In this document: positions 48,895 through 63,166 of the stretch, piece after piece
Layout: the number at the start of each line of letters is the position of its first letter
Numbering within the stretch: the stretch's first letter is position 1
Assembly: GCA_021157605.1 (NCBI GenBank)
Contig: JAGGWG010000006.1
Location: 2,387-66,386, forward strand
DNA length: 64,000 bases
Reading direction: 5' to 3'
Source: a bacterium
GTDB taxonomy: Bacteria > Patescibacteriota > UBA1384 > JAGGWG01
The notes under the pieces: model-generated
Told to the model about the DNA's origin: nothing
The model's database searches: none
Seen by the model: the letters and a program-made list of their open reading frames with translations, nothing else
Program-made: the position numbers and the translations under genes

Positions 48895-49629
48895 TCAGTA
48901 TCTTTCTATTTCTCCTGCTTTTTGGCGGTATTGGCAGTATTCGCAAGTTGTTTTTGGCTTAGGGAGTTTATCGCTTTGCAGTATTTTTTTGATTTCTTTT
49001 AGTGTTGGCTCTATCCAAGAGGTTGAGCCTTTATAAGGCAGAAGCTTAACATCAAACTCCAGTTTGCCGTCAAAAGCTTTGCGGTCACGCTTGGCATTAA
49101 CATAGACAAAGTAGGCAGTGTCTGAAACCTTAAAGCCATTGTTTCTAAAAAGCCATTGATAGATTTCCAGCTGTCTTTTGTATCCTTCTTTCCATTCTCC
49201 GTCTAAGGTTACCTCCCCGTTAATACTCGTAGCTTTATAATCAACCACAATCAGCTCTTCTTTTTTGCTGATCCAAATGTCGTCAATAGCTCCATAAACC
49301 AAAAAATTAGTTTCAGGATCATGGTACTGAATACCTTGCCTGAAATTACGCCAGTTTTCCAATTCTTGATGCTGAAATGGTACTGCCTCTAAGCCGTAGT
49401 TTTTGAGTAGGGGGTGAGTGGAGTTTTTAGCGCGATGAATATCAAACTCTTTTTTAAGCAAATGATCAACAGCGCTGTTAAGAGTGAAAGCCGGCCACGA
49501 GGGTCGTCTGATGCCTAGTTTTACATCTAGGTAGAAACATCTTGGACACTCCACAAACAACTCAATTTTTGACCGACTGAGTTTGAAGGGGCTTTTTGGT
49601 TTTTGAAAGAAAAGATTTTGCTGCGGCAT
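48895..49629 (-). CDS. Cas4/RecB-like PD-(D/E)XK nuclease (orphan, no CRISPR array or cas genes nearby)
   Basis: It has SKIELFVECPRCFYLD at the N-terminus, a core IDDIWISKKEELIVVDYK (D...D/ExK) and the C-terminal Cys pair CEYC. Confidence 0.55.
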   Translation of the reverse strand: MPQQNLFFQKPKSPFKLSRSKIELFVECPRCFYLDVKLGIRRPSWPAFTLNSAVDHLLKKEFDIHRAKNSTHPLLKNYGLEAVPFQHQELENWRNFRQGIQYHDPETNFLVYGAIDDIWISKKEELIVVDYKATSINGEVTLDGEWKEGYKRQLEIYQWLFRNNGFKVSDTAYFVYVNAKRDRKAFDGKLEFDVKLLPYKGSTSWIEPTLKEIKKILQSDKLPKPKTTCEYCQYRQKAGEIERY

Positions 49630-49880
49630 AGTTTTAATTAGTGGTAATTTTTATATCCTTTTTTACTTTTTCGGGTTTGCTTTTGTATTATTTTGCGTTG
49701 CGGATTTTTTGTCAAAGCCTAGAACCGCTTGGACCAATCATCTCAAGGGTGAGCAGAACAACGAGAATAATAAGAATTTTTATCATCCTTCTTTTTTATT
49801 TTCTCTTTTATTGTATATTTCCATCTTGACTTTTGGGACAAATAGTTACAGAGAGAGGATTTGTTACGTCTTTTGTCTTC

Positions 49881-50612
49881 TTAAATCCTTTTTAGGTATT
49901 TTTCTATTCTTTGTATTTTTTTATCATCCAACTTATCAATTTTCTCCAGTATATATTTTAGTAAATAATGTAGTTTGTGGCTTAAGGCATTTGAGTCAAT
50001 TCCTATTTCATTTTTTCTTGTTAATGCGAATACATCTCGACTTTGATAAAAGAGAACAATAGAACGGAAGTCAGCTTTTGGCATAAAAGGCAGACCTGCG
50101 GCCGGTATATTTTTTGGTGTAAATTCATGTACGAGACTATTCCTTACTCTTAAAAGCTTTTCAATTTCTTCATCATTTAAATTTGTCAGTCTTTTCGTCG
50201 CCTTGAGGAGCTTTTTAATTTTTTTGTGCGTTCCTACCTTTAATTCTCCTTCTTTTGGCATCTGGCCAAAAGGTCTTAATAAGAAATCTGTTATCCATTT
50301 TTTACTTCTGCTTCTATATAATTTTGTTATTTTTATTTTTGCTTCTTCTAATTCTTTTATTTCTTTTTTGCTCCAAAAATCTTTTTCTTTGCTTTCTACA
50401 ATTGCGTTAACTGTTCCAAGAAACTCGATAGTTGCCAAGGTAGATAAAAGAACTGTGAAGTTGCCCCCTCCGATTGGTATTTCTCGGCTATCTTTCTCAA
50501 TGGTGGATACACATTTTGTGTATAGAAAGGTATTGCTGTCAGCAATGGAATAGCTTACTATTTTTGCGATTTTTTTGCTTACCTTATTTTTGAGAATCTT
50601 TTTTTTATTCAC
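49881..50612 (-). CDS. Hypothetical protein with a HEPN-type R-N-x3-H motif (predicted RNase-like effector)
   Basis: It has EIEKLLRVRNSLVHEF (Rx4-6H with N after R) in a helical context. It is 243 aa and overlaps the upstream gene by 8 nt. Confidence 0.4.
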   Translation of the reverse strand: MNKKKILKNKVSKKIAKIVSYSIADSNTFLYTKCVSTIEKDSREIPIGGGNFTVLLSTLATIEFLGTVNAIVESKEKDFWSKKEIKELEEAKIKITKLYRSRSKKWITDFLLRPFGQMPKEGELKVGTHKKIKKLLKATKRLTNLNDEEIEKLLRVRNSLVHEFTPKNIPAAGLPFMPKADFRSIVLFYQSRDVFALTRKNEIGIDSNALSHKLHYLLKYILEKIDKLDDKKIQRIEKYLKRI

Positions 50613-51561
50613 AGACTTCTTTTTTTTTAATACTCAAAGGGAAAAATATAAGTTTGAGCAAAAAGGTTATGATGAAAATTATGCTTAGTATAGCTAACGT
50701 AATTAGAGATAGTGTAAGTGGTAGCCAGGGAATTTTGGCAAGCAAAAAACCTAGATATGCAAGGCTAGCAGGGAATAGTTGCCGGATTAATAACAATATA
50801 CCGAGACAAATTATGATCCATGCTGATAACAGAAAGAATTTGTAAGTCCAGTATGGCCATTTATCCTTCATCAGTTTTTCTCCGCATACAATTTTGGTAG
50901 TTTCCCAAATAACCTCTCCCATTAGCAGTCCTTCTTTAGTTATGAGTATGCCATCGCGTGTGTCTTGACCATTTGCGAATTTGGCAAATCCGCGCATAAC
51001 TAAATTTTTTAGGATTCTATCTCTGCCGATCTTGTCTACTTCTTCCTGTTTGATTTTCATATCGTCTAGTTTTGGAGAATAACTATCTATATCGGCTTGT
51101 TTTAAATTGACTATAAGATTAGAAATTATCTTTTCTTTTGCTTCGGCAGGCAGTCTTTTTTCATCTGGTGGCAACCGGTCTTTGTCATTTCTAAGCTGTT
51201 TTTCTAACTTTCTTATATCTTCCAAAAAAATCAGCCAACTCTTTTCCAATACATCCAAAACAGCCTCGGCAAATTGTTTCTCTTCCTGTGTATCGAGATC
51301 CTGGTTTAGTTTTTCGCGCTGTGCGAGTAGATGGTGTTCGTATTTCTTTTTTCTTGCCTCTATGGTTTTGGCTTTTTCAAAGAGATCAAATTCAAATATA
51401 GGACTGCCCAGATGTTTATGTCCCCAATAAGTCCACCGTAAGATTCTTTTTTCAATAGGCCAAAGGCTTTCTTTTTGGTGGTCTGCTTGGGCATTTAATT
51501 GTTGGAGGGTCTGGAAAAGTTCCAATTTTTTGTAAAATTTAATAGTAAAAGGCAGGTTCAT
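50605..51561 (-). CDS. Hypothetical protein with a soluble charged coiled-coil N-domain and 2-3 C-terminal TM helices
   Basis: 318 aa. The C-terminal segments FFLLSAWIIICLGILLLI and LTLSLITLAILSIIFIITFLL are hydrophobic. It is translationally coupled to the HEPN-motif gene. Confidence 0.4.
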   Translation of the reverse strand: MNLPFTIKFYKKLELFQTLQQLNAQADHQKESLWPIEKRILRWTYWGHKHLGSPIFEFDLFEKAKTIEARKKKYEHHLLAQREKLNQDLDTQEEKQFAEAVLDVLEKSWLIFLEDIRKLEKQLRNDKDRLPPDEKRLPAEAKEKIISNLIVNLKQADIDSYSPKLDDMKIKQEEVDKIGRDRILKNLVMRGFAKFANGQDTRDGILITKEGLLMGEVIWETTKIVCGEKLMKDKWPYWTYKFFLLSAWIIICLGILLLIRQLFPASLAYLGFLLAKIPWLPLTLSLITLAILSIIFIITFLLKLIFFPLSIKKKEVCE

Positions 51562-51684
51562 GCTGTATTTATTTTACTACAAATACTAATCTGTCAAAGT
51601 TAGAGCTAGTTCCGCGTAGCTTTTCCATCTGCTGTTACTTTACAAATCTGCCTCCGAAGTCTGCTATCTCTTTAAAATGTTTGC

Positions 51685-52488
51685 TCAACAATCCTCTCTA
51701 GCTTCCTGGCCCAACAGCCATTTTTCTTTCTTCAGAACTGCCTCGTAGGTTTTTTTGTGCCAATAGAACAGCCTTTTGTCAAGTTCATCTGATATATGAT
51801 AAAAATGAAGATGGGCATACATTTCGGTTAATTTTTTTGCAAAAATCTTTTCCTTAGGTTTAAGCTCTTGAGGTTTTTTCAGCTTCTTCAACCACTGTCG
51901 GGCTTCAACATGCTCCGGCACATTGAGTTTTAGATGTAATACTATATTTTTATACGCATCGCTGCTAAATTTAAATCTCCGGATTTCTTCCAATGTGTTG
52001 TTAAAACTTCGAATTTCTTGATTAAGTCGTGCAAGATATTCATTAATTTTGGGGCCCAGTTTCGCGGTTCCTGGCAATAAAAGTGTTTGTCCAAGCACTG
52101 TATGAACATCAGGATTAAAGATATTATAGAAAGGATTGCCCCACTCTCTCAGCTTGCTGTCCGCTGTTCTTGCCATGTCGTACCGGTGATATCCCCCTTC
52201 TTCATATTTCGTCCAGCTTCCCAGAATCTCTAATTGTTTCTTCAATAGATTAATCGCCTGCATTTTTTCTTCGAAAGTTTTTTTCTCATAAAGGTAAAAA
52301 GCTACCTCCACAGAGAGTCCAGGTATAAGAGCAGGAATAATACCTGAAAGAATATTCTGCAATGAAAAAATATATCCAGTTTTCACCCATCTTGCCCATC
52401 CAAGAGCTAGTATCAAGAGGACTAGGAGTGTGGCAAACCAAAGAGTGGCTGGGTAATTTCTCAATGTTTTCTTCCACAAACTGCACAT
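51685..52488 (-). CDS. Hypothetical protein with two N-terminal TM helices and a soluble C-domain
   Basis: 267 aa. The N-terminus ATLWFATLLVLLILALGW and IIPALIPGLSVEVAFYL is hydrophobic. I recognised no catalytic motif. Confidence 0.4.
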   Translation of the reverse strand: MCSLWKKTLRNYPATLWFATLLVLLILALGWARWVKTGYIFSLQNILSGIIPALIPGLSVEVAFYLYEKKTFEEKMQAINLLKKQLEILGSWTKYEEGGYHRYDMARTADSKLREWGNPFYNIFNPDVHTVLGQTLLLPGTAKLGPKINEYLARLNQEIRSFNNTLEEIRRFKFSSDAYKNIVLHLKLNVPEHVEARQWLKKLKKPQELKPKEKIFAKKLTEMYAHLHFYHISDELDKRLFYWHKKTYEAVLKKEKWLLGQEAREDC

Positions 52489-52584
52489 AGCGACTTTTAG
52501 CTTGCGTTTTTGCTGACAAACCTCTACTGGTAATTCATCTAATCTATCATATCTCTTGGGCCTAGGTCAATAATAGTATTTTTT

Positions 52585-52612
52585 ACAAAAAAGGGGCTCT
52601 GCCGAACCCCTT
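52585..52612 (-). terminator. Rho-independent terminator downstream of hsdR
   Basis: On the minus strand, AAGGGGUUCGGCAGAGCCCCUU forms a hairpin. It is followed by a U-run, which reads as the plus-strand A6 at 52587-52592. Confidence 0.5.
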
Positions 52613-52666
52613 ATTCTTATTCTTATCTTTCTCACTTCATCCTCTCCGCCACCACTTCGGCGAATT

Positions 52667-55663
52667 TTAATCTGAAGAACCAGCATCTTCAAACAAAAAT
52701 TGAGCTTGTTTTAAAGTAACCTGAGCAATGGGCTCAGCCTCCTGTGGCGGAATTCCCGATCGATAAAGAATCCTTTTAATTTTGCCTCTAATCCTAGCAA
52801 GCAACACGTCATTATTCGTCCAATCTACCGCCAGATCTTCTTTAATTGCCTGTACCACTTCCTTTGCTAACCGTCTCAATTCTTTATCCTCTTTTATATA
52901 CTTTTTCCCTTTTGTCAATGCGTCATAAAAAGCTAACTCTTCCTCACTCAAGCCTAATTTTTGCCCCTTTCTCTCTTCTGCTTTTATCTCCTTTGCCAAG
53001 TCAATCAACTTATCAATAGTTTCGGCAGAATCTATAAATTTCTTCTCATATTTCTCAATTACCTCTTCCAATCTTTCTCTAAGAGAGTCATACCGCACTA
53101 TATTTTTCCTTAATCGCGAATTAATTTCATCACTTAGCAATTTTCTTAATACTTGAATCGCCAAATTGGGGTAGGCCATCTGCTTTAGTCTTTTCAAAAA
53201 TTCTTCATCAAAGATCGAAACCTCCGGCTTTTTCTTGCCTTGCATCTCTAAGATATCTATTGGTTTGTCAGCTGCAATGCTCTCGGCAATCAGCTCTTTA
53301 ACTGTAGTTTCTATTTTCTGCTCCACCGTTAGTGGCCGAACAATTACTCTTTTAACAATATTTTTCTTAATCGCCTGAAAGAACTCTACTTCTTTTTGAA
53401 TTTTATCTGCTTCGGGATGGGGCCGAATAAAAGCCCACAATTTAAACAATGCTGTTGCCTCTTTTATAAAACGTTTTTGTTTTTCTTCATCAATTCTCCC
53501 TGTTTCTTCATCAGTAATAACTTTGTTAATCGCCCGCTGAAAGAGTCGAGCCAATTTCCTTCCTGGTAGCTTGTGCCAGCTTTTGTATCTCATCCCAGCA
53601 AAATAAGAACGAACGATATCGTATTTCTCGTGCATTCTCTCAATTAACTCCTCTAGAGGGATCAAGGCTTCTTTGACCTCTTTTTCACTATAGATGTTCA
53701 ATGCTTTCCTCAAATCATCCGCAATCCCAATATAATCAACGATTAAACCTCCCTGCTTATCCTTAAAAACCCTGTTCACTCTCGCAATCGCCTGCATCAA
53801 AGTATGGTTTTTCAAAGGCTTGTCCATATACATTGTGGCCAAGCAAGGCACATCAAACCCCGTCAACCACATATCGCAAACAATCACCATTTTGAGCGGA
53901 TCATCTGGATCCACAAATCTCTCTTTTAGCTGTTCCACATCCAAATCATCCTGAACCTTTCCTTTAAAATCAGTCAACCCGGAAACAGCCACTGCACACT
54001 CTGGAGCCTCAGGGTTTTTAGAAATTAGTTTATACATCTTGACCGCTACTTTTCGACTAATGGTCACCACCATCGCTTTTCCTTCAACTGCCCGATGGTT
54101 GAAATGCCAGACGATATCTCGGGCGATTTTCTCTAGCCGGTCAGGGTCACTGATCAGCTTTTCTAATCTGGAATACCTCTTCTTAAGTTCTTCTTTTGCC
54201 TCTGTATCTAAATTCGCCGTAAGATGGTCAAAATCTTCATCTATAAACTCGTTTGTTAAATGCAAAGGCACAAGTCTTCCTTCGTAATAGATAGGAACGA
54301 CTGCTTTATCTTCCACCGCTCTATCGATAGGATAAACACTAATATAATCTCCAAAAACCAACCTCGTATCTCTATCCCGAAGGCTGATTGGAGTCCCAGT
54401 AAAACCGAGAAAAGAAGCATTGGGCATTGCCTGACGAGCATTGCCTGCAAGTTTTGCGTATTGCGATCGATGAGCTTCGTCAGCAATAACAATTAGATTA
54501 TGCTTCTTAGAGAGAAGAGGGTATTTTTCTTCTTCACGCTCGGTCTCAAATTTTTGAATTGTGGTAAAGATTATGTCTCCACTTGCTCTTTTAAGTCTCT
54601 CTCGTAAATCTCTGATTGACTTTGCCTGTTTAGGAAAGAGGCCACACCTTTTAAACTTCTTAAAAAGTTGGTTGTCAAGATCGTTTCTGTCAGTCAAAAA
54701 TACAAAAGCTGGATTTTTAAGTTCTTTAAGTTGTCGTACTTTGTTCACATAAAAAATCATTGAAATAGATTTTCCCGAGCCTTGCGTGTGCCAAAAAACT
54801 CCAATGCGACCATCTCCTTTAGGCTTAACTTTTGTCTTTGTGGCTTCAATCGCTTTGTTCACCCCAAAGTATTGGTGATAAAGGGGCATCTTTTTGACAA
54901 AAGTGCTCCCTTCTTTCTCAAAAATGATGAAATTTTGAACGATATCTAAAAAACGAGCCTTGTGGAAAATGCCTTTAATCAAAACCTCAAGTTGGTTCAC
55001 TCCTTTTGTTTTTTCGTTTTCATTCTCAATTTTTTTCCAAACCGAGAACCATTCGCGGGTAGAACTAATTGTACCGTGCTTAGCTTCTAAAAGATCAGAA
55101 ATAACAATGACTTGATTGTATTTAAAGATATCGGGGATATCTTTTTTGTAACCTTTCATCACTTGATCGTAAGCATCATCGATTGTGGCATTTTCTGTAG
55201 CCGGGTTTTTGAATTCAAAAAGAGCCAAAGGCAAACCATTTACAAAGACTATGAGATCGGGCCGCCTTACTTTTTCTGTGCCTTGAACGGAAAATTGGTT
55301 AACGATTAAAAAGTCATTTCGCTCCGGCTGCTCAAAATCAATTAGCTTAACATAATCCCATTTTTCTTCGTCAATCTTGAGCGGTACACCCTGAATAAGC
55401 AGTCGGTAAAAGTTCTTGTTAGCAATTATAAGGTCCGGATGTTCGATTCGTTGAATTTCCTCAATCGTTTCTTCTATTGCTGCTTGAGGAATTCCCGGAT
55501 TCAAATTTACCAAAGCCTCTTTGAGCCTTCTTTCTAAAATTACCTGGCGATAATCTCTTCGTTCCAATACCAAATCTTTTGGACCAAAGGCATAATCATA
55601 CCCAAGGCTTTTAAACCACTCAATTGCTGGTTGTTCTGTTAGGGTTTGTTCGATTAGTTTCAT
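52667..55663 (-). CDS. hsdR: Type I restriction enzyme R subunit
   Basis: 998 aa. It has an N-terminal PD-(D/E)XK region, an SF2 helicase motif I (FWHTQGSGKS) and motif II VIADEAHRSQ. The C-terminal half is helical. Confidence 0.9.
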   Translation of the reverse strand: MKLIEQTLTEQPAIEWFKSLGYDYAFGPKDLVLERRDYRQVILERRLKEALVNLNPGIPQAAIEETIEEIQRIEHPDLIIANKNFYRLLIQGVPLKIDEEKWDYVKLIDFEQPERNDFLIVNQFSVQGTEKVRRPDLIVFVNGLPLALFEFKNPATENATIDDAYDQVMKGYKKDIPDIFKYNQVIVISDLLEAKHGTISSTREWFSVWKKIENENEKTKGVNQLEVLIKGIFHKARFLDIVQNFIIFEKEGSTFVKKMPLYHQYFGVNKAIEATKTKVKPKGDGRIGVFWHTQGSGKSISMIFYVNKVRQLKELKNPAFVFLTDRNDLDNQLFKKFKRCGLFPKQAKSIRDLRERLKRASGDIIFTTIQKFETEREEEKYPLLSKKHNLIVIADEAHRSQYAKLAGNARQAMPNASFLGFTGTPISLRDRDTRLVFGDYISVYPIDRAVEDKAVVPIYYEGRLVPLHLTNEFIDEDFDHLTANLDTEAKEELKKRYSRLEKLISDPDRLEKIARDIVWHFNHRAVEGKAMVVTISRKVAVKMYKLISKNPEAPECAVAVSGLTDFKGKVQDDLDVEQLKERFVDPDDPLKMVIVCDMWLTGFDVPCLATMYMDKPLKNHTLMQAIARVNRVFKDKQGGLIVDYIGIADDLRKALNIYSEKEVKEALIPLEELIERMHEKYDIVRSYFAGMRYKSWHKLPGRKLARLFQRAINKVITDEETGRIDEEKQKRFIKEATALFKLWAFIRPHPEADKIQKEVEFFQAIKKNIVKRVIVRPLTVEQKIETTVKELIAESIAADKPIDILEMQGKKKPEVSIFDEEFLKRLKQMAYPNLAIQVLRKLLSDEINSRLRKNIVRYDSLRERLEEVIEKYEKKFIDSAETIDKLIDLAKEIKAEERKGQKLGLSEEELAFYDALTKGKKYIKEDKELRRLAKEVVQAIKEDLAVDWTNNDVLLARIRGKIKRILYRSGIPPQEAEPIAQVTLKQAQFLFEDAGSSD

Positions 55664-55672
55664 TTTGCCTCA

Positions 55673-56911: not shown

Positions 56912-56913
56912 GG

Positions 56914-58137
56914 CTATACCCTTATTTCCCCACTCATTAATTTAGGCAAAAGTAAATCGCGAAGAGACGATAAAAGTTGGTTTTCTTTTACATTCCGGAT
57001 AAGTTGTTTATAAAGGGGGAAGCACATTTTTTCGAAATGATTAAGCAGCTTCTTTGGAGGGAGAACAAAAGGCATTCTGCAAAGATCATCCCATTTTACC
57101 ACAGGCATCTTGGTCCCCGATGCGCATTTGGAAGCGAATTCTATTGTAGAAGCAGAGAATAAGAGAGAAATTGAAAATGAATATAACTCTCGCTTTCTAG
57201 GATAAATCACAAAAACTGATTGATTTGTGACACCATCGAAAGGTGCTATAACTACCTTGTGAAAATAAGGCCTTACGGCTCCGAAAAGAATATCCCCTTT
57301 GTAAAATCTAAATGCCGATGTCTTAATCTCTGCACCCTTACCAAAAGTGGAAACACTCAGACTTCGCCGAGGAAACCTCCCTAGATCAAGTAACTTTTCT
57401 CTCTTCCACTCCTCAAAGGTTTTAATTCTCTCCCTCCGTCGCTCTACGATCTCTCCCAACCTCTCTACTCTCCATCCTTCCGGAATTTTGCCTAATTCGC
57501 TGTCAACAAATTTCACTTTTTCCCAACCCGGGAATCTAAATTTCACAAACCACTCTTCAAAAATCGCCTGCGCCATTTCCTCCAGTGTCTGGTTAATCTT
57601 GTTGTTGAGCTCAATCTTCTCATCAAAAGCAGAAAGAATATCCGCAATGCGCTTTTGTTCGTTGAGGTCTTGGGGGATTGTTATTTCAAAGTTCTCAAAT
57701 TTGGATTTAGAAATATTCGTGTATACCGACCCACTATATTTTAACAATCGAGGTTTCACGTATTTAAAACAGTAATAAAGGAATTCGGGTAGAATTTTAT
57801 CTATATCGCAAATTACAGAATTGATTTGTTGATTAGTAAAGCTTTCCCTGCATGTTATTCCGACTTCTCCTACAGTAGCCAAACACGAAACCACAACAGC
57901 TTTGGGTGGCAACTTTAAATTTCTCATCGATTGTGCCCCTTTTTCTGAAAGAGTTCGCTCTGTTTTCTCTATGTAGCGCTGATTTTTTAGATCGGGAATG
58001 GTAATAAATGGGTAACGACCGCCGAAATTTCTTGGATCAGTAGTAGAAGGAGTTTTGCCTGTTATAACCTTCCCGATTTCTTTAATTTTCACGCTTTTCC
58101 ATTTTTTACTCTTGGAAAACATCTTTTCGTCCTCCAT
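56914..58137 (-). CDS. hsdS: Type I restriction-modification specificity subunit
   Basis: It has two target-recognition domains separated by conserved helical spacers (e.g. the IFEEWFVKFRFPGW and LRDLLLPKLMSGEI repeats). An alternative start at the MFSK codon (58122) has a better GGAGGA Shine-Dalgarno sequence. Confidence 0.85.
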   Translation of the reverse strand: MEDEKMFSKSKKWKSVKIKEIGKVITGKTPSTTDPRNFGGRYPFITIPDLKNQRYIEKTERTLSEKGAQSMRNLKLPPKAVVVSCLATVGEVGITCRESFTNQQINSVICDIDKILPEFLYYCFKYVKPRLLKYSGSVYTNISKSKFENFEITIPQDLNEQKRIADILSAFDEKIELNNKINQTLEEMAQAIFEEWFVKFRFPGWEKVKFVDSELGKIPEGWRVERLGEIVERRRERIKTFEEWKREKLLDLGRFPRRSLSVSTFGKGAEIKTSAFRFYKGDILFGAVRPYFHKVVIAPFDGVTNQSVFVIYPRKRELYSFSISLLFSASTIEFASKCASGTKMPVVKWDDLCRMPFVLPPKKLLNHFEKMCFPLYKQLIRNVKENQLLSSLRDLLLPKLMSGEIRV

Positions 58138-58169
58138 TTTTAATTTTTAACTTTATCCTCCACCAATTT

Positions 58170-59075
58170 TTATTTAAAAAGCTCCTCCAAGAAAATCCTA
58201 ATTTTAACTGCTGCACCTTCCACGTCTGACAATTGAATATTGATCGAGTATGAATGTTGAGCACTATCAATTAAAATTTTGTAATTCATTACCTCTTTGT
58301 AAATTCTTTTGTTGGAAAGCAACCTTTCCGCTTTCCCCAAGAGATTTTTTGTCTCTAAATACTGCCCCTTTTCATCTTTGACTTCTGACTCTTTGTTTAT
58401 TTGCTGGAACTTCCTCACAATAGAAAGAGGCAAAATTCTTCTTAAAATTAATATAGATGCTATTGGTCTTTTGTTGGCGAAATTAAAATTAAAATCATCA
58501 CACAATATTTTCAAATCTGGAGGTAGCTTTTTCACCAAGCTGTTTGGAAATAAATCTTTCTCAGTTCGACTGCTTCTTATTGTTGGTTTATCTTTAGTTT
58601 TGCTAATCGTCCAATCAAGAAGCTTATCACGCACAGCCTCTAAAACTGAAACTATCTGGCTTTGAGGGAAAAACATTGCAAACTCTGTCCGCATCTTAAC
58701 TGCTTGTGCAAGCATTTCTTGCATGGGTGGTGGATATTTAATTTGCAAGTAGTCTTCACTTTTATCAAGCAGGTTCTCAAGTTCGGGAATTGACTCAAAG
58801 ATGTGTTGTCGAGAAAGCAAATCTTGAGTTTTGTCGTCTTTGGGAAACATCACGGGTATCCATCGACCCAAAACAGGATTAAGTGCCTTGGGCTCACCTC
58901 TTATCAACCTATAGCTAGGTGGTTTGCCTGAACTGTAACCATTCATTTCGCGATCAATCCATTTTAAAAATTCTTTATCGCCCAATTCACTCGCCAGGAT
59001 CTTTGCCTTCCTTAATAACTCCGAAACTTTTGCTTCAGATTTAATGATCTCGTTTTTAAATTCCTGGATATCCAT
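58170..59075 (-). CDS. Hypothetical ~300-aa protein embedded between hsdM and hsdS (possibly Abi-like)
   Basis: I prefer the MDIQEF start at 59075 with a GAGGG Shine-Dalgarno sequence. The track starts at 59117 and would overlap the upstream gene by 32 nt. The N-terminal segment LKWIDREMNGY resembles abortive-infection (AbiTii-like) N-domains, but this is unverified. Confidence 0.4.
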   Translation of the reverse strand: MDIQEFKNEIIKSEAKVSELLRKAKILASELGDKEFLKWIDREMNGYSSGKPPSYRLIRGEPKALNPVLGRWIPVMFPKDDKTQDLLSRQHIFESIPELENLLDKSEDYLQIKYPPPMQEMLAQAVKMRTEFAMFFPQSQIVSVLEAVRDKLLDWTISKTKDKPTIRSSRTEKDLFPNSLVKKLPPDLKILCDDFNFNFANKRPIASILILRRILPLSIVRKFQQINKESEVKDEKGQYLETKNLLGKAERLLSNKRIYKEVMNYKILIDSAQHSYSINIQLSDVEGAAVKIRIFLEELFK

Positions 59076-59085
59076 ACTTCCCTCT

Positions 59086-59379
59086 TTATCTGATAACGAA
59101 AAATTTATAAATCTCAAAAAGCAAACTTGCTATAGCAATTAGCATTCCAATGCCCGCTATGATAACACCAGCTAAAGTGATTTTATTTAAGGCTTTTGTT
59201 AACTTCTCTGAAGAGGCGGTGGCCTTCTCGATATTCGAATTAAGGTTTTTTAGCTCTTCCTTAATCCTTCCCACTGTACGAAAAAAGCCTGAAGGCCAAG
59301 GTCTCACAGAGAAATAGGAAGTCAAAGTGTCCAAAAATTTCCGGATTTTTTCATAATCTTCTTCCTTAAATCTCATCAT
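59086..59379 (-). CDS. Small tail-anchored membrane protein (97 aa)
   Basis: It has a soluble helical N-terminus and a single C-terminal TM (ITLAGVIIAGIGMLIAIASLLF). There is a 4-nt ATGA overlap with the GIY-YIG stop. Confidence 0.35.
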   Translation of the reverse strand: MMRFKEEDYEKIRKFLDTLTSYFSVRPWPSGFFRTVGRIKEELKNLNSNIEKATASSEKLTKALNKITLAGVIIAGIGMLIAIASLLFEIYKFFVIR

Positions 59380-59681
59380 TTTCCTTTCTGTTCTTTATTA
59401 AATGGCGGTTTTCTTCTCCTAACAAGAAAAGTCTCTAGCCTTTTGGCTTCTTCTACAGAGTTAGTAAGAATCACTCCAAACTTTACCGCTTGCTGTTTCT
59501 GCTCTCGAATCTCCCGCACACTTTCCAAAATTCTTTTTGGCAAACGTCCTCTTTTCGCTCGCCCCACTTTTTGAAGTCGACCAGAACGAGTGAAGATCCC
59601 GTATACCCCCGGCTTGTCTTTGGGCAATTGTTTGAGAGTGACTTTGGTGATCTTTTTGATTGAAACAAATTTTTTACGCAT
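59376..59681 (-). CDS. Small stand-alone GIY-YIG nuclease domain protein (YhbQ-like, 101 aa)
   Basis: It has KPGVYGIF...GRLQKVGRAKRGRL...ILESVREI...VILTNSVEEAKRLETFLVRRRKPPFN. This places the GIY / Y(K)VG / Arg / Glu / Asn catalytic pattern in order. It overlaps the hsdM stop by 8 nt and has a GGGAG Shine-Dalgarno sequence. Confidence 0.6.
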   Translation of the reverse strand: MRKKFVSIKKITKVTLKQLPKDKPGVYGIFTRSGRLQKVGRAKRGRLPKRILESVREIREQKQQAVKFGVILTNSVEEAKRLETFLVRRRKPPFNKEQKGK

Positions 59682-61278
59682 TTTGTCTCCCTAAACGCTT
59701 TAAGTTATGCTTAATTTTTCTTTCTAGCTTCCTCGACTCCTTGAAATATTTTTCTAATTGCTTCGTCAATTTTTTCATCTTCTTCTCAAACGGTATGCCG
59801 TCGTCTTCTTCGGGCTTAATACCCACATATCTTCCCGGCGTCAAAACATAACCTGCTTTTCTAATTTCTTCGATAGTGACTGCCTTACAAAATCCTGGCT
59901 CATCCTTGTATTTTCCGGCTCCCTTTTCTCCCCGCCAAGCTCTAACAGTATCAGCGATTTTCTGAATCTGCTTGTCAGTGATCACATATTGTTTTCTGGA
60001 AATTGGCTCATACATTTCGCGCGCATCAATAAACAAAGTTTCACCACGACGGTCTCTAAATCTTTTATTTCTTTTGTCTTTGGTCAAAAACCAAAGAGAG
60101 ACCGGCAATGAAACGTTGTAGAAAAGTTTGGGCGGACAGGCAATAATTACGTCTACCAAATCATCTCTAATAATTCTTTTTCTAATTTCGCCTTCTTTGC
60201 CTCCCACAGCCAGGGCGCCATTTGCCATCACAAAACCAGCTACTCCGCCGGGAGCCAAGTGGTAAACAAAGTGCTGGATCCACATAAAGTTTGCGTTGCT
60301 GTTAGGAGGAAGACCATATTTGATCCTTGGATCTTTCTGAATTCTATCTGCGCCCCAATCTGAAAAGTTAAAGGGGGGATTGGAAATTACAATATCTGCT
60401 CGGAGATCAGGGAATTTGTCATTGTGGTAAGAATCGCCTTGTTCAACGTGGGCGATGATCCCTCTAATTGCCAAATTCATTTGGCAAAGCCGCCAGGTGG
60501 TTGAGTTTTTTTCTTGGCCATAAAAGTTTATTTTGCTGGGATCTTTTTTGTGCATTTCAATAAATTTTCTGCTTTGGATAAACATACCTCCGCTTCCGCA
60601 GGCTGGGTCAAAAACCCGACAGTTTTCATAGGGCTCCAAAATCTCTATCAGTAACTTTACTAAACATCGAGGCGTGTAGAATTCGCCACCTCTTTTGCCC
60701 TCTGCAGAAGCAAACTGACCAATGAAATACTCATAGATTCTTCCCAAGAGATCTTTGTCTTTTTCTTTTTGTTCTTGAATCTTGCTAAAGAGATTGATCA
60801 GCTCGCCTAGAATTCTGGGTTCTAAATCTCTGACTCGCGTGTACTCCACAAAAATTTTAGGCAGAACACCTTTTAGTTGAGGGTTTTCTTGTTCTATTAA
60901 TTCCATTGCCTTGTCTAGCTTACGAGCAATATCAGAGGAGGTAGCGTTTTCTTGAAGATAGGACCATCGGGCTTCTGGGGGAATATAAAAAATGCCCTGG
61001 CTAAGGTAAGAATCTTTGTCTTCAGTAATAGCTTCTCGAGCTTGAGGCGTAGGGGCGTAATAGGGGCTGTTTTTGTCTTGGGTGGCTTTTTCGAGAAATC
61101 TCTTTCGCTTATCAAAAGCCTCAGAAATGTATTTTAAAAAGATCAATCCCAAAACAATATGTTTGTATTCAGAGGCATCCATGCTGCCTCGCAGCTTGTC
61201 AGCTGCTTGCCAAAGTTGGTTTTCAAAATCGATGTCTTTCATTTCTGCTATCTTAGCAGATTTACCCCTAAAAATCAA
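59674..61278 (-). CDS. hsdM: Type I restriction-modification N6-adenine DNA methyltransferase subunit
   Basis: It has an N-terminal HsdM_N helix domain, the motif I region FDPACGSGGMF and motif IV NPPFNFSDW. Confidence 0.9.
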   Translation of the reverse strand: MIFRGKSAKIAEMKDIDFENQLWQAADKLRGSMDASEYKHIVLGLIFLKYISEAFDKRKRFLEKATQDKNSPYYAPTPQAREAITEDKDSYLSQGIFYIPPEARWSYLQENATSSDIARKLDKAMELIEQENPQLKGVLPKIFVEYTRVRDLEPRILGELINLFSKIQEQKEKDKDLLGRIYEYFIGQFASAEGKRGGEFYTPRCLVKLLIEILEPYENCRVFDPACGSGGMFIQSRKFIEMHKKDPSKINFYGQEKNSTTWRLCQMNLAIRGIIAHVEQGDSYHNDKFPDLRADIVISNPPFNFSDWGADRIQKDPRIKYGLPPNSNANFMWIQHFVYHLAPGGVAGFVMANGALAVGGKEGEIRKRIIRDDLVDVIIACPPKLFYNVSLPVSLWFLTKDKRNKRFRDRRGETLFIDAREMYEPISRKQYVITDKQIQKIADTVRAWRGEKGAGKYKDEPGFCKAVTIEEIRKAGYVLTPGRYVGIKPEEDDGIPFEKKMKKLTKQLEKYFKESRKLERKIKHNLKRLGRQNA

Positions 61279-61346
61279 TCTTGATTTTTGGAATAAATAT
61301 TGTGTAATTTGGGCTGGTTTTGGGGGTGAAAGTAGTGTTAGGGCTT

Positions 61347-61378
61347 AAAACAAAAACCTTCGCAAAGTATTGCGAAGG
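61347..61378 (-). terminator. Rho-independent terminator separating the zinc-ribbon genes from the hsdM operon
   Basis: A perfect 9-bp stem CCTTCGCAA / TTGCGAAGG with a 4-nt loop is followed on the minus strand by a U-rich run (plus AAAACAAAAA). Confidence 0.6.
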
Positions 61379-61391
61379 TGAATTGATTGGG

Positions 61392-61559
61392 TTAATCCTC
61401 TCTGCTGCTAGTGAGCTGCCCCCATTCTTTTTCTCCATAAACGACTTTTCCGCAACGGGGACAGCGGTAAACCACTGTTGTCAGGTTGTCCCTGACAGTA
61501 GTGGTTCCCCCTTTTTGGAGGAGAGTTTCACAATTTGGGCAGTGGTCATGATGATCCAT
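61392..61559 (-). CDS. 55-aa zinc-ribbon protein (CPNC...CPRC), not in the supplied ORF track
   Basis: My hand translation gives MDHHDHCPNCETLLQKGGTTTVRDNLTTVVYRCPRCGKVVYGEKEWGQLTSSRED. It lies in a G+C-rich patch and is the first of three tandem zinc-ribbon ORFs. Confidence 0.35.
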   Translation of the reverse strand: MDHHDHCPNCETLLQKGGTTTVRDNLTTVVYRCPRCGKVVYGEKEWGQLTSSRED

Positions 61560-61578
61560 ATCTTGCCTCCCCGGACTT

Positions 61579-61935
61579 TTAGTCTCCCGGCAGAAAAGGA
61601 TGGTTGCCTTTTTCTTCCACGGTCTCGATCAAAGTGATAATGATGACTATTGGTAATAAGAAGAGGTAAAGGCACATTCCTCCAAATTTCTGCAGAGCGA
61701 ATCTTATTCGCCATTCTGCGGGAGCAATGAGTCTGTTCCAAAAATACAGGCTCGCGCTGTAGCGAATTACTTGTTCCGGAGGTATTGCGAGTATTCTTCG
61801 CTCTATGACTTCCACGAAATGATGACACCGGTTACAAAAATAACGATTTACTTTGGTGTCTCCTGATTCTAGTATTGGTTCTACGAACTGCAAAAAGTTA
61901 TTGCACCGTTCACATCTTATTTCAGCACCTCTCAT
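61579..61935 (-). CDS. Zinc-ribbon protein with a hydrophobic C-terminal region (paralog A)
   Basis: It has CERC...CNRC, then LYFWNRLIAPAEW, then a C-terminal TM (LYLFLLPIVIIITLI). Confidence 0.45.
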   Translation of the reverse strand: MRGAEIRCERCNNFLQFVEPILESGDTKVNRYFCNRCHHFVEVIERRILAIPPEQVIRYSASLYFWNRLIAPAEWRIRFALQKFGGMCLYLFLLPIVIIITLIETVEEKGNHPFLPGD

Positions 61936-62282
61936 TTTAATACCTCCTCTTCTTCGTAATCGTTTTCGCGCGAGATGAGATCCATAACATAATCAACTGT
62001 AAACAAAGGCACAATGATAGAAAGGAGACCCAACTCCCTTATTTCTTCGAGGGCGAAAGATACCCCCCATGCCAAAGGAGCAACCAGCTTTCTCCAAAAA
62101 TAAAGTGTTGGGCCACACCTTTTTTGCTCTGTGAGAGTAAGATTGAGACCAGGATCGTACCACGATATTACCTCAACATATTCATTGCAATTGCCGCAAT
62201 AATAACGCTCAATGTCTTTGTCGTCGAGACTGAGTATAGTCTCGACGAATCGCAGTAACTTCCCGCATTTGTCGCACTTCAT
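61932..62282 (-). CDS. Zinc-ribbon protein with a hydrophobic C-terminal region (paralog B)
   Basis: It has CDKC...CGNC, then LYFWRKLVAPLAW, then a hydrophobic helix. It aligns colinearly with paralog A and overlaps it by 4 nt. Confidence 0.45.
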   Translation of the reverse strand: MKCDKCGKLLRFVETILSLDDKDIERYYCGNCNEYVEVISWYDPGLNLTLTEQKRCGPTLYFWRKLVAPLAWGVSFALEEIRELGLLSIIVPLFTVDYVMDLISRENDYEEEEVLK

Positions 62283-62355
62283 TATTGTGATACCCCCTTT
62301 TGGTAAAGTGCTTTTCTCACCATAGGAGAAACAGGGACAAAATGCAAGTTTATAG

Positions 62356-63165
62356 TCAGCTGGCTATATCCCGTTTAGAAAAAACTATAATGGCCAAGAG
62401 GGTAAAAAGTATTGCTACTCCCAGAAAAACCCAAACAGCCAAGTTTTCAATCTGATTATTAATTAGAGCTTGGCTGGGATCGTAATAATGGAAAAAAGAG
62501 AAGTATTTTGTCTTGTTCCATTCGTTTTTTAGGGAAGAGACAATGTTGACTACATACATTGCTACAATAATAGCTACAGAGACAAAATAGACCTTTCCTT
62601 TTTCAGAAAATAAAGCAGAAAAAAACATAGCTAAACTAAAGGTTGCCCAACCTAATAAAAAGCCAACAATAGCCAAACTTAAATAATGGGAAGTTTGGAA
62701 CTCTATATTATAAAGAGAGGCCAAAGGGATAGCTGAAAAAATAGAAATAGCGGTAAAAACTATCAGGGCTGAAATGCCTGATAAGTATTTAGCCAAAAAG
62801 ATTTTGAGGCGGGATATGGGCTGGGATAACAAAATCTCAATAGTCTTTTTTTCTATTTCTCCGGCAATTGAGGAGCCTGCCCAAGAAATAGTTAAAGCAA
62901 AGAGCATTATCGGCCAAACAAAGCTAAACTGCTCTACAGACAGAAAGTTTTCCAGCTTGGTAAAAGAAAGCTCAGGAGATTCAATATCAAAAGCCTTAAG
63001 TAAGGATTCCGGATAAGTCTTCATTAGTTCTTGCAACTGTTGCGCCTGTTCCTTGATCGAGGGAAAGAGAGCGACATACATCCATAGAAGGAGAATTCCG
63101 GCTAAACAGTAAGCCAAAATAGTGTATTTTCTATCTTTAATTGTGCGCCAGAATAAAGCAAGCAT
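62356..63165 (-). CDS. ABC-2 family transporter permease
   Basis: 269 aa with six hydrophobic helices. It is adjacent to an ABC ATPase. Confidence 0.55.
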   Translation of the reverse strand: MLALFWRTIKDRKYTILAYCLAGILLLWMYVALFPSIKEQAQQLQELMKTYPESLLKAFDIESPELSFTKLENFLSVEQFSFVWPIMLFALTISWAGSSIAGEIEKKTIEILLSQPISRLKIFLAKYLSGISALIVFTAISIFSAIPLASLYNIEFQTSHYLSLAIVGFLLGWATFSLAMFFSALFSEKGKVYFVSVAIIVAMYVVNIVSSLKNEWNKTKYFSFFHYYDPSQALINNQIENLAVWVFLGVAILFTLLAIIVFSKRDIAS

Positions 63166-63166
63166 T

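What the first reader, a model, noticed from the sequence alone, without database searches (positions are those of the whole stretch)
48895..62282. ~13 kb defence island embedded between rpoD-side housekeeping genes and a transporter
Between the glycoside-hydrolase-like and Ser/Glu-linker genes on the left and the ABC transporter on the right, every gene is defence-associated or of unknown function: a Cas4-like nuclease, a HEPN protein, membrane proteins, Type I RM, a KAP NTPase, a GIY-YIG nuclease and zinc-ribbon paralogs. No tRNA, integrase or transposase marks the borders. Accumulation may therefore be by recombination into a hotspot rather than by a classic mobile element.
Basis: inference. 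Interest (0 to 1): 0.55.

Follow-up and report, generated by a model that had tools for sequence, protein, structure and literature searches.

The report
Swappable defence-gene slot in a CPR genome
An 11.5 kb stretch between conserved housekeeping genes of an uncultured ultra-small (CPR, probably Saccharibacteria-like) bacterium holds a restriction-modification operon stuffed with extra anti-phage genes. A sister strain carries a completely different defence set in exactly the same slot, so this is a real but fairly ordinary integrase-free defence hotspot.

Summary
They are a Cas4-like nuclease, a HEPN protein, two membrane proteins, a Type I RM, a KAP NTPase, a small GIY-YIG protein and zinc-ribbon paralogs. 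An AbiTii gene was missed. No tRNA, integrase, transposase, att-like repeat or GC anomaly was found.

A sister strain has flanks 94-96% identical in DNA. It keeps the PgeF-dnaG-rpoD-GH113-S/E-Cas4-like genes on one side and the zinc-ribbon trio plus ABC transporter on the other. Between them it carries about 11.5 kb of unrelated cargo: a Type III RM with Shedu and DUF3800 embedded.

The variable segment is therefore window 49739-61234. The Cas4-like and zinc-ribbon genes are conserved flank, not cargo.

A more distant relative carries the same Type I module at another site. It lacks AbiTii and has a different gene in place of KAP, with junctions at gene boundaries.

The hsdM promoter-like leader and a decayed ten-codon hsdM stub survive in front of the sister's Type III cargo.

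The hotspot interpretation is supported, most likely through homologous recombination across conserved flanks. Integrase-free core defence hotspots and RM-embedded defence genes are already described, so this is a new member of a known kind. Only two alleles could be compared.

The parts
48895..49629 (-). Cas4-like PD-(D/E)XK nuclease with CPRC...CEYC cysteines. It belongs to the conserved left flank, not the cargo.
   Evidence: PF12705 2e-15. TIGR00372 (cas4) scores 39 bits, below its cut-off of 65. It is 96% identical in the sister strain. More than 576 relatives at about 55-65% identity occur in metagenomes.
49687..49715 (-). Promoter-like site (TTGACA-17-AATAAT) for the Cas4-like gene, retained in the sister strain.
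   Evidence: 11 of 12 consensus match. It lies inside the block that is conserved up to the left breakpoint.
49739..61234 (.). Variable cargo segment of the hotspot, about 11.5 kb.
   Evidence: Homology to the sister strain stops at about 49738 and about 61235. The sister has about 11.5 kb of unrelated genes here.
49881..50612 (-). 243 aa stand-alone HEPN-fold protein, a predicted RNase effector or toxin.
50605..51561 (-). 318 aa protein with a soluble N-terminal part and 2-3 C-terminal TM helices. Function is unknown. It overlaps the HEPN gene by 8 bp.
   Evidence: Hydropathy. Only 10 homologues were found. One of them lies directly after a Type IIG-like RM gene in L068.
51685..52488 (-). 267 aa protein with two N-terminal TM helices and a four-helix bundle. 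Function is unknown.
52591..52612 (-). Intrinsic-terminator-like hairpin closing the RM operon.
   Evidence: 9-pair stem followed by a T-run.
52632..61305 (-). Type I RM module as a transferable unit, from the promoter-like leader to 35 bp past the hsdR stop codon.
   Evidence: These are the limits of homology (82-86% nt) to the copy at a different site in GCA_054042585.1.
52667..55663 (-). hsdR.
   Evidence: HSDR_N, SWI2_SNF2, T1R_D3-like and T1RH-like_C domains.
55673..56911 (-). KAP-family P-loop NTPase embedded between hsdS and hsdR. No TM segment is predicted.
   Evidence: PF07693 above its cut-off, with weak QatA and PifA matches. Homologues carry PF07693. A homologue occupies the same hsdS-hsdR slot in L100.
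56914..58137 (-). hsdS, with two target-recognition domains.
   Evidence: Methylase_S matched twice. Only the central and C-terminal conserved regions match the L102 hsdS.
58170..59075 (-). AbiTii-domain protein embedded between hsdM and hsdS. The C-terminal ~125 aa are unassigned.
   Evidence: PF18864 5e-36 and PADLOC AbiTii 8e-38. The gene is absent from the L102 copy of the module.
59086..59379 (-). 97 aa coiled-coil protein with a C-terminal TM helix. It travels with the RM module.
   Evidence: TM segment. Weak AbiTi match, 0.0085. 86% identical in L102.
59376..59681 (-). 101 aa GIY-YIG-like protein. It travels with the RM module.
   Evidence: Matches to the UvrC N-terminal region, best 8e-6. 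88% identical in L102.
59674..61242 (-). hsdM. The real start is most likely the ATG at 61242, not the mechanical TTG at 61278.
   Evidence: HsdM_N and N6_Mtase domains. The 522 aa form is the one in NCBI.
61243..61278 (-). Promoter-like leader TTGATT-17-TAAGAT. Its -10 hexamer sits inside a perfect inverted repeat, TCTGCTAAGATAGCAGA (61244-61260), 7 nt before the ATG. This suggests a leaderless mRNA and a possible operator.
   Evidence: The leader is conserved in the window, in L102 and in front of the sister's Type III cargo. It matches only 8 of 12 consensus positions, so the promoter scan did not list it.
61356..61379 (-). Terminator-like hairpin ending the ABC and zinc-ribbon transcription unit.
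   Evidence: 10-pair stem followed by a T-run. It is conserved in the sister strain.
61392..62282 (-). Three small zinc-ribbon genes (55, 118 and 116 aa). The two larger ones are paralogues with a C-terminal TM helix. They belong to the conserved right flank.
   Evidence: BLASTP 1e-22. TM segments. 91%, 91% and 78% identical in the sister strain.
62356..63901 (-). ABC-2 permease and ABC ATPase, part of the conserved right flank. The ATPase runs past the end of the window.
   Evidence: Pfam. 97-98% identical in the sister strain.

Best explanation
Window 49739-61234 is one allele of an integrase-free chromosomal defence hotspot in an uncultured CPR (probably Saccharibacteria-like) bacterium.

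The slot lies between two conserved blocks. On the left are PgeF-dnaG-rpoD, a GH113-like gene, an S/E-rich protein and a Cas4-like nuclease. On the right are an ABC transporter and three zinc-ribbon genes.

The cargo has two parts.
1. A single Type I RM operon, transcribed from one promoter-like leader and closed by a terminator. Accessory defence genes are embedded in it. A GIY-YIG-like protein, a 97 aa membrane protein and AbiTii sit between hsdM and hsdS. A KAP NTPase sits between hsdS and hsdR.
2. Three further genes downstream: a membrane-anchored four-helix-bundle protein, a second membrane protein, and a HEPN protein.

The inferred history is as follows. Whole cargoes are exchanged between related strains by homologous recombination across the conserved flanks. 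This is plausible after natural transformation, which has been shown for cultured Saccharibacteria. Inside the RM operon, individual cassettes are also swapped at gene boundaries.

The inferred function is layered defence. The RM enzyme restricts unmethylated DNA as a first line. The embedded AbiTii and KAP proteins and the neighbouring HEPN protein act as back-up, abortive-infection-type effectors.
For: Shown:
- Domain assignments for all the named genes.
- The sister strain shares both flanks at 93.6-95.7% nucleotide identity. Between them it has unrelated cargo: Type III mod, a 272 aa gene, DUF3800, Shedu SduA (2e-62), a 217 aa gene and Type III res (9e-135), followed by five small genes.
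- The breakpoints sit in intergenic or promoter DNA. One is 109 bp upstream of the Cas4-like ATG and the other is at the hsdM start.
- A ten-codon hsdM stub survives in the sister at 18 of 30 nt in a fixed register, P about 1e-4.
- The same RM module is found at another site, in the opposite orientation relative to the backbone, in GCA_054042585.1. It is 82-86% identical in nucleotides there, against 72-76% for the housekeeping flanks. AbiTii is absent and KAP is replaced by a 187 aa gene, with junctions at the hsdS stop and the hsdR start.
- There is no tRNA, recombinase or border repeat, and no GC deviation.
- ENA contigs from the same samples end at 49735, 49703 and 49699, that is at or within 40 bp of the left breakpoint. 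This is what co-existing alleles would do to an assembly.
- A KAP homologue is embedded between hsdS and hsdR in an unrelated operon, and another is paired with Shedu.

From the literature:
- Saccharibacteria are naturally competent and recombine with about 1 kb homology arms (PMC10633639).
- Core-gene-flanked hotspots have been proposed to transfer by homologous recombination (PMC10250203).
- Defence genes embedded in Type I RM operons are known (10.1101/2024.01.29.577857; PMC11411939).
Against: - Only one sister allele and one more distant relative were available, so the frequency of exchange is unknown.
- All sequences are metagenome assemblies.
- The recombination route is inferred, and no donor was identified.
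- No defence activity has been tested for any gene.
- Three cargo genes have no assignable function beyond fold or topology.
- The AbiTi-like and GIY-YIG assignments are weak.
- The promoter-like leader matches the sigma-70 consensus at only 8 of 12 positions.
Confidence: 0.78

Rival explanations
1. Reciprocal loss. The ancestor carried both the Type I and the Type III cargo in a larger island, and each strain deleted a different half. No horizontal replacement occurred.
For: The sister strain retains the hsdM promoter-like leader and a decayed hsdM 5' stub. A Type I module, or at least its start, was therefore once present there.
Against: The two cargoes share no gene, yet both ends of both alleles coincide to within a few bases. 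Independent deletions would not be expected to do that. The Type I module is also more similar between distant relatives than the housekeeping genes are, and it sits at another site there. That shows the module does move.
Confidence: 0.1
2. Remnant of a conventional mobile element (an integrative island, a prophage or a satellite) whose integrase lies outside the sequence examined or has been lost.
For: Defence islands are often carried by mobile elements (PMC10250203). The window stops about 4 kb before the end of the contig.
Against: - Both borders of the variable DNA are defined, and conserved housekeeping genes lie immediately outside them.
- The sister contig shows no recombinase domain for 10 kb beyond the ABC genes.
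- No PHROG hits were found, apart from one marginal hit (E=0.0023) to a family of unknown function for the 118 aa zinc-ribbon flank gene.
- There is no tRNA, no border repeats and no GC shift.
Confidence: 0.05
3. Site-specific cassette exchange, with the inverted repeat in the hsdM leader (61244-61260) acting as a recombination site, somewhat like an integron attachment site.
For: The roughly 70 bp leader is the only sequence shared by all three contexts: the window, the other site in L102, and in front of the Type III cargo. It lies at the right breakpoint.
Against: No recombinase gene is present. No matching repeat was found at the left breakpoint or at the 3' end of the module. The repeat encloses a -10-like hexamer, so a promoter with an operator is the simpler reading. 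In the sister strain homology continues about 30 nt past the repeat into an hsdM stub.
Confidence: 0.04
4. Assembly or binning chimera: the cargo does not really sit between these flanks.
For: All the data are short-read metagenome assemblies. The u243 junction next to the Cas4-like gene is covered only by the NCBI contig.
Against: An independent ENA contig, identical except at a scaffold gap, spans ABC, the zinc ribbons, hsdM and on into hsdR. Two independent JGI assemblies agree on the sister allele. Both alleles join the flanks at the same positions.
Confidence: 0.03

Closest known systems
Core defence hotspots flanked by conserved core genes (cDHS1/2 of Pseudomonas aeruginosa, PMC10250203; E. 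coli defence hotspots, known to me only as a reference, Hochhauser 2023, cited within PMC11411939).
   Same: The flanking core genes are fixed and the defence cargo between them varies. There is no obvious mobile-element affiliation. Transfer by homologous recombination of the flanks has been proposed.
   Different: Only two alleles were seen here, against hundreds to thousands there. The slot is small (11.5 kb), shows no GC deviation and sits in a reduced CPR genome. A resident promoter-like leader is retained across alleles.
Defence genes embedded inside RM, BREX, DISARM or Hma operons ('guilt by embedding', Payne et al. 2024, 10.1101/2024.01.29.577857; TgvAB in the Vibrio cholerae VPI-2 Type I RM, PMC11411939).
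   Same: Accessory genes lie co-oriented between hsdM, hsdS and hsdR. The sister allele shows the same pattern in a Type III RM, with Shedu and DUF3800 between mod and res.
   Different: The embedded set is different: AbiTii, KAP, a GIY-YIG-like protein and a small membrane protein. None has been tested. Here two relatives show cassette gain, loss or replacement at exact gene boundaries.
EcoprrI-PrrC, and RloC (an anticodon nuclease held in check by a Type I RM; described in PMC3710099).
   Same: A P-loop NTPase gene sits inside a Type I RM operon, and the operon neighbourhood contains a HEPN protein. A plausible logic is a second-line effector released when restriction is blocked.
   Different: The NTPase is a KAP-family protein without a fused HEPN domain. 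The HEPN protein is a separate gene outside the operon. No interaction is known.
Lactococcal AbiT (AbiTi plus AbiTii).
   Same: There is a strong AbiTii-domain match. A small upstream membrane protein is arranged like AbiTi.
   Different: Similarity to AbiTi is marginal (E 0.0085). The small protein persists without AbiTii in the related module. The protein has about 125 extra C-terminal residues. PMC3710099 reports that AbiTii domains are often fused to HEPN domains, but this was not tested here.

Membership tests
Core-gene-flanked defence hotspot | The same conserved flanking genes occur in related genomes. | tested here: met
   Flanks are 93.6-95.7% identical in nucleotides in the sister strain, with the same gene order.
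Core-gene-flanked defence hotspot | The gene content between the flanks differs among genomes and is dominated by defence genes. | tested here: met
   One allele has a Type I RM with AbiTii, KAP and HEPN. The other has a Type III RM with Shedu and DUF3800. They share no cargo gene.
Core-gene-flanked defence hotspot | Many different occupancies across a population (true 'hotness'). | tested here: inconclusive
   Only two alleles were recoverable. Contig breaks near the left breakpoint in three ENA assemblies hint at co-existing variants.
Integrase-mediated genomic island or prophage | An integrase or recombinase gene, a tRNA or other att site, and flanking direct repeats. | tested here: not met
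   No tRNA, no recombinase domain and no border repeats. PHROGs gave no hits apart from one marginal hit (E=0.0023) to a family of unknown function for the 118 aa zinc-ribbon flank gene.
Type I restriction-modification system | hsdM, hsdS and hsdR present with their characteristic domains. | tested here: met
   N6_Mtase 3e-108 with HsdM_N; Methylase_S matched twice; HSDR_N, SWI2_SNF2 and T1RH-like_C.
Type I restriction-modification system | Methylation and restriction activity. | not testable with these tools
   Requires methylome data or expression of the operon.
HEPN superfamily (243 aa protein) | A conserved Rx4-6H motif. | tested here: met
   R157-N-x-L-x-H162-E is invariant in 12 sequences at 43-50% identity.
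HEPN superfamily (243 aa protein) | A HEPN helical-bundle fold. | tested here: met
KAP P-loop NTPase | A match to the family profile above its curated cut-off. | tested here: met
   PF07693 scores 25.3 bits against a cut-off of 20. 33 of 42 homologues carry PF07693.
KAP P-loop NTPase | Transmembrane helices inserted in the P-loop domain. This is described as typical of the family; the statement rests on my own knowledge of Aravind et al. 2004. | tested here: not met
   No hydrophobic segment was found. The protein resembles the soluble defence KAPs (weak QatA and PifA matches).
AbiT two-gene abortive-infection system | An AbiTii-domain protein. | tested here: met
   PF18864 5e-36 and PADLOC AbiTii 8e-38.
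AbiT two-gene abortive-infection system | An AbiTi partner. | tested here: inconclusive
   The 97 aa protein matches AbiTi at E 0.0085 only. Its orthologue occurs without AbiTii in L102.
CRISPR-associated Cas4 | A score above the cas4 model cut-off, and linkage to cas1, cas2 or a CRISPR array. | tested here: not met
   TIGR00372 scores 39 bits against a cut-off of 65. No array was found. Neighbours in 80 related loci are mostly housekeeping genes, and a UDG-family gene lies downstream in 6 of 34 loci.
GIY-YIG nuclease (101 aa protein) | A match to the GIY-YIG catalytic domain. | tested here: inconclusive
   There is no Pfam hit. Only the UvrC N-terminal region matches, at 8e-6 and far below the model cut-off.

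The most novel reading that the evidence does not exclude
The slot may be a 'plug-in' expression site. A resident leader of about 70 bp, probably producing a leaderless transcript and carrying an operator-like inverted repeat, stays in place or travels with the cargo. Whatever RM-scaffolded defence cassette recombines in is then expressed from it.

Exchange would operate at three nested levels without any mobile-element machinery: the whole cargo, the RM module, and single embedded genes. The strongly conserved Cas4-like nuclease gene immediately downstream might take part in, or benefit from, this traffic. In distant CPR lineages the same gene also lies directly downstream of Type I, Type IIG or Mrr-type restriction genes (L046, L071, L068).
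Probability: 0.1. Interest if true: 0.6.

Novelty: new member of a known kind. Interest (0 to 1): 0.38.

Why it matters
CPR/Patescibacteria have tiny genomes and mostly lack CRISPR, and little is known about how they defend themselves against phages.

This locus shows that a lineage of this kind keeps a compact, swappable defence slot next to essential genes. It packs several candidate abortive-infection genes inside RM operons. It exchanges them at the level of the cargo, the module and the single cassette, without any visible recombinase.

The locus also nominates untested candidates by 'guilt by embedding': the KAP NTPase, the GIY-YIG-like protein with its small membrane partner, a rare stand-alone HEPN family, and two membrane proteins.

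The concept itself is already established in Proteobacteria, so the value is as a clean example in an under-studied phylum rather than as a new principle.

Tried and rejected
- **GTDB genome scan with the GH113-like flank gene.** It gave a single 5.9 kb Saccharibacteria contig without useful synteny.
- **Is the position upstream of the Cas4-like gene a general defence site?** I scanned 80 metagenome loci. Neighbours are mostly housekeeping genes. A minority have restriction genes upstream: Mrr_cat in 4 of 117 upstream proteins, Type I RM in L046 and L071, and Type IIG in L068. None was listed downstream. PADLOC matched 105 families upstream against 21 downstream, but the models are redundant. 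The result is suggestive, not conclusive. A phmmer attempt to locate the other Mrr proteins failed.
- **Are the three genes between hsdR and the Cas4-like gene a conserved cassette?** Rejected. Homologues of the HEPN gene occur alone, next to RhuM or near another Type I RM, and never with the other two genes.
- **Similarity of u243 to other genes directly upstream of a Cas4-like gene.** Pairwise comparisons with the gene directly upstream of the Cas4-like gene in L068 and in the sister strain were not significant. Nor was the comparison of the two small GIY-YIG proteins.
- **PDB sequence searches** for u243, KAP and AbiTii gave nothing useful. PHROGs gave nothing apart from one marginal hit (E=0.0023) to a family of unknown function for the 118 aa zinc-ribbon gene.
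- **Fold search of the 267 aa protein** returned only generic four-helix bundles.
- **The apparent hsdM split in ENA contig L001** is only a scaffold gap of Ns.
I worked around this through cluster members.

Full report
**Origin of the sequence.** The island proteins are identical to those of a 67,972 bp contig from an NCBI MAG labelled only 'bacterium' (locus tags J7K05_007xx). The same DNA occurs in ENA assemblies of the SPET22 metagenomes. The only hit among GTDB species representatives is an uncultured Candidatus Saccharibacteria MAG, at 67% protein identity for the GH113-like flank gene. Relatives of the Cas4-like gene come from a range of metagenome assemblies, including an ACD sample deposited only as 'uncultured bacterium'. 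I therefore treat the organism as a CPR/Patescibacteria member, probably Saccharibacteria-like. The rest of the window is housekeeping: LeuRS, PolA, PNPase, RNase J, FtsK, pyruvate kinase, PPDK, DnaE, NDK, BacA, PgeF, DnaG and RpoD.

**What is in the interval.** All genes from 48895 to 63901 are on the minus strand. In the direction of transcription the order is as follows.
- ABC ATPase and ABC-2 permease.
- Three small zinc-ribbon genes of 116, 118 and 55 aa. The first two are paralogues (1e-22), each with a C-terminal TM helix.
- A strong terminator-like hairpin at 61379-61356.
- hsdM (59674-61242).
- A 101 aa GIY-YIG-like gene, a 97 aa membrane-anchored gene and AbiTii.
- hsdS, a KAP-family NTPase and hsdR.
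- A terminator-like hairpin at 52612-52591.
- A 267 aa membrane protein, then a 318 aa membrane protein overlapping a 243 aa gene by 8 bp.
- A good promoter-like site (TTGACA-17-AATAAT), and finally the Cas4-like PD-(D/E)XK nuclease.

The genes from hsdM to hsdR overlap or lie 2-32 bp apart, so they read as one operon.

**No mobile-element marks.** There is no tRNA, no Rfam family and no CRISPR-like array. No recombinase domain was found. PHROGs gave only one marginal hit (E=0.0023), to a family of unknown function, for the 118 aa zinc-ribbon gene. There is no repeat pair at the borders beyond short AT-rich chance matches. Cargo GC is 0.380 against 0.381 elsewhere.

**The synteny test.** The 90% clusters of the Cas4-like protein and the ABC permease each contain a member on JGI contigs of 134.6 kb and 29 kb.

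Those contigs carry the left block (h193, h179, PgeF, DnaG, RpoD, GH113-like, S/E-rich protein, Cas4-like) at 84-100% protein identity (94-100% apart from h193). They carry the right block (ABC ATPase, permease, three zinc-ribbon genes) at 78-98%. In DNA the left block is 95.7% identical over 7.8 kb and the right block 93.6% over 2.8 kb.

Between the blocks the sister strain has about 11.5 kb with no detectable similarity to the window's cargo. It reads:
- a Type III mod gene with an N-terminal GIY-YIG domain;
- a 272 aa gene, DUF3800 and a 31 aa ORF;
- Shedu SduA (2e-62) and a 217 aa gene;
- Type III res (9e-135);
- five small genes, including a 92 aa GIY-YIG protein.

Alignments place the breakpoints at window ~49738 and ~61235. 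The first is 109 bp upstream of the Cas4-like ATG, just outside its promoter-like site. The second is at the hsdM start.

The variable unit is therefore 49739-61234. The Cas4-like gene and the zinc-ribbon genes are flank.

Three ENA contigs from the window's own samples end at 49735, 49703 and 49699. This is what an assembler does where co-existing strains diverge.

**A second level of modularity.** A more distant relative, GCA_054042585.1, has dnaG-rpoD at 76% nucleotide identity and the dnaE-BacA block at 72%. It has the same backbone order: dnaE, NDK, BacA, two to three small genes, PgeF, dnaG, rpoD.

In that genome the Type I module is inserted between the small genes and PgeF. This is a different site, and the module points the other way relative to the backbone.

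The module is more similar to the window's copy than the housekeeping genes are. It is 82-86% identical in nucleotides. HsdM is 92% identical in protein, HsdR 90%, the GIY-YIG-like protein 88% and the 96/97 aa protein 86%.

Homology runs from window 61305, just upstream of the promoter-like leader, to 52632, which is 35 bp past the hsdR stop.

Inside the module the relative lacks AbiTii and has a 187 aa gene with no recognisable domain where the window has KAP. Its hsdS shares only the conserved central and C-terminal regions, so it has different target-recognition domains. Homology resumes exactly at the hsdR start codon.

Cassettes inside the operon are therefore gained, lost or replaced at gene boundaries.

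**The leader.** Immediately before the hsdM ATG lies TTGATT-17 nt-TAAGAT-7 nt-ATG. The -10-like hexamer is enclosed in a perfect 7+3+7 inverted repeat, TCTGCTAAGATAGCAGA (61244-61260).

The same arrangement, with TAGAAT as the -10-like hexamer, precedes hsdM at the other site in the distant relative. An identical copy precedes the Type III cargo in the sister strain.

In the sister it is followed by ATACAAGATGCTCACTTTGACAACCGGCTA. This matches the first 30 nt of hsdM at 18 positions in a fixed register (P about 1e-4). It translates as IQDAHFDNRL against MKDIDFENQL.

I read this as an hsdM stub with a mutated start codon. On that reading the Type III cargo replaced a Type I module downstream of its own promoter.

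The leader matches the sigma-70 consensus at only 8 of 12 positions and was not listed by the promoter scan. Its promoter role, the leaderless mRNA and an operator function for the repeat are all inferences.

**The unassigned genes.**
- *The 318 aa protein.* It has only 10 homologues. One of them, in L068, starts at the stop codon of a large Type IIG-like methylase/restriction gene. It is followed there by an Mrr_cat gene and a gene with an RN...H motif, and then a Cas4-like gene.
- *The 267 aa protein.* Its family has 45 representative clusters. The model is confident (pLDDT 90). It is a membrane-anchored four-helix bundle with only generic structural neighbours.

**KAP and embedding.** The KAP assignment is solid at family level, although the protein has no TM insertion.

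In an unrelated contig a 39%-identical homologue sits between hsdS and hsdR, together with Abi_C, DUF3800 and two unknown genes. In another contig a homologue follows a Shedu gene.

This is not a random sample.

The pattern is already described. Payne et al. report frequent embedding in Type I RM, BREX and DISARM and use it to predict defence genes. TgvAB is an experimentally confirmed case in Vibrio cholerae. PrrC is the classical one. The same HEPN review notes that AbiTii domains are often fused to C-terminal HEPN domains. The roughly 125 unassigned C-terminal residues of the AbiTii protein here could be such a domain, but I did not test that.

**The Cas4-like gene.** It scores below the cas4 model cut-off. 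It has no CRISPR context. It has more than 576 relatives at about 55-65% identity in metagenomes.

In 39 non-redundant loci with at least 3 kb of upstream sequence, the three nearest upstream genes are mostly housekeeping. Downstream, a UDG-family glycosylase occurs in 6 of 34 loci. It therefore looks like a conserved repair-type nuclease rather than a defence gene.

However, restriction genes recur immediately upstream of it and co-oriented with it. There is a Type I RM in L046, hsdR 12 bp upstream in L071, and a Type IIG gene with Mrr in L068. Mrr_cat was found in 4 upstream proteins in all, and none was listed downstream. PADLOC family counts point the same way (105 against 21), but they are inflated by redundant models. 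I record this as an unexplained side observation.

**Mechanism.**
- *Shown.* The cargo is allelic between conserved flanks. The breakpoints are clean and intergenic. The RM module exists at a second site with higher identity than the backbone. No recombinase, att site or compositional signal is present.
- *Inferred.* Exchange occurs by homologous recombination through the flanks. This is plausible because cultured Saccharibacteria are naturally competent and integrate DNA with about 1 kb homology arms. The same route has been proposed for core defence hotspots. The move of the module to a new site needs some form of illegitimate or microhomology-assisted recombination, and I found no trace of how it happened.
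- *Functional model (inferred).* The Type I enzyme restricts unmethylated DNA. AbiTii, KAP and the HEPN protein act as back-up effectors of the abortive-infection type, by analogy with PrrC and EcoprrI.

**Limits.** Only two alleles of the slot and one displaced copy of the module were found. Everything is metagenome-assembled. The u243/Cas4-like junction is covered only by the NCBI contig. No activity has been tested.

**Verdict.** The hotspot interpretation is supported. The phenomenon belongs to known categories, namely integrase-free core defence hotspots and RM-embedded defence genes. Its main merit is as a clean, three-level example in a CPR genome, together with a handful of untested defence candidates.

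Noticed in passing
window 48895-49629; loci L046 (402-10726), L071 (37-3689), L068 (2-6783): The conserved Cas4-like gene has restriction genes immediately upstream and co-oriented in three distant CPR lineages. These are a Type I RM with two embedded genes in L046, hsdR 12 bp upstream in L071, and a Type IIG-like gene, a u318 homologue and Mrr in L068. Mrr_cat occurs in 4 of 117 upstream neighbour proteins, and none was listed among 98 downstream neighbours. The downstream neighbour is a UDG-family glycosylase in 6 of 34 loci.
   Followed up: partly
window 61244-61260 (also L102 10020-10034 and L007 11902-11918): A perfect inverted repeat, TCTGCTAAGATAGCAGA, encloses the -10-like hexamer 7 nt before the hsdM ATG. 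It is conserved in three genomic contexts, including in front of an unrelated Type III RM. It could be an operator on a leaderless transcript.
   Followed up: partly
ENA contigs L004, L005 and L006, which end at window 49735, 49703 and 49699: Short contigs from three samples of the window's own metagenome series stop at or within 40 bp of the left breakpoint of the variable segment. This is consistent with several alleles co-existing in those samples.
   Followed up: no
L007 12005-14259 versus L003 1-707: The sister strain's Type III mod gene is intact (776 aa) in one JGI assembly and split (511 + 240 aa) in the other. A T7 run lies about 10 nt downstream of the stop codon that ends the first reading frame. 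This could be phase variation, a real frameshift or an assembly error.
   Followed up: no
L095 5243-10255; L100 1787-11858; L003/L007 (Type III mod to res): Other RM operons fetched here also carry embedded genes. L095 has Bro-N, a 308 aa gene and a 221 aa gene between hsdM and hsdS. L100 has Abi_C, a 207 aa gene, KAP, DUF3800 and a 163 aa gene between hsdS and hsdR. The sister strain has a 272 aa gene, DUF3800, Shedu and a 217 aa gene between Type III mod and res.
   Followed up: partly
window 61392-62282: Three tandem small zinc-ribbon genes, two with a C-terminal TM helix, sit between the ABC-2 transporter and the hotspot. They are conserved with the transporter in the sister strain. Their function is unknown, and they may be accessory to the transporter.
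   Followed up: no
window 2764-5325 and 5344-6780: Two large minus-strand ORFs (853 and 478 aa) have no Pfam match at 1e-5, in an otherwise housekeeping neighbourhood.
   Followed up: no
L098 4562-7308: A 38%-identical homologue of the island's KAP NTPase forms a tight two-gene pair with a 478 aa Shedu (SduA_C) protein in another metagenome contig. This suggests KAP may act as a partner of nuclease effectors.
   Followed up: no
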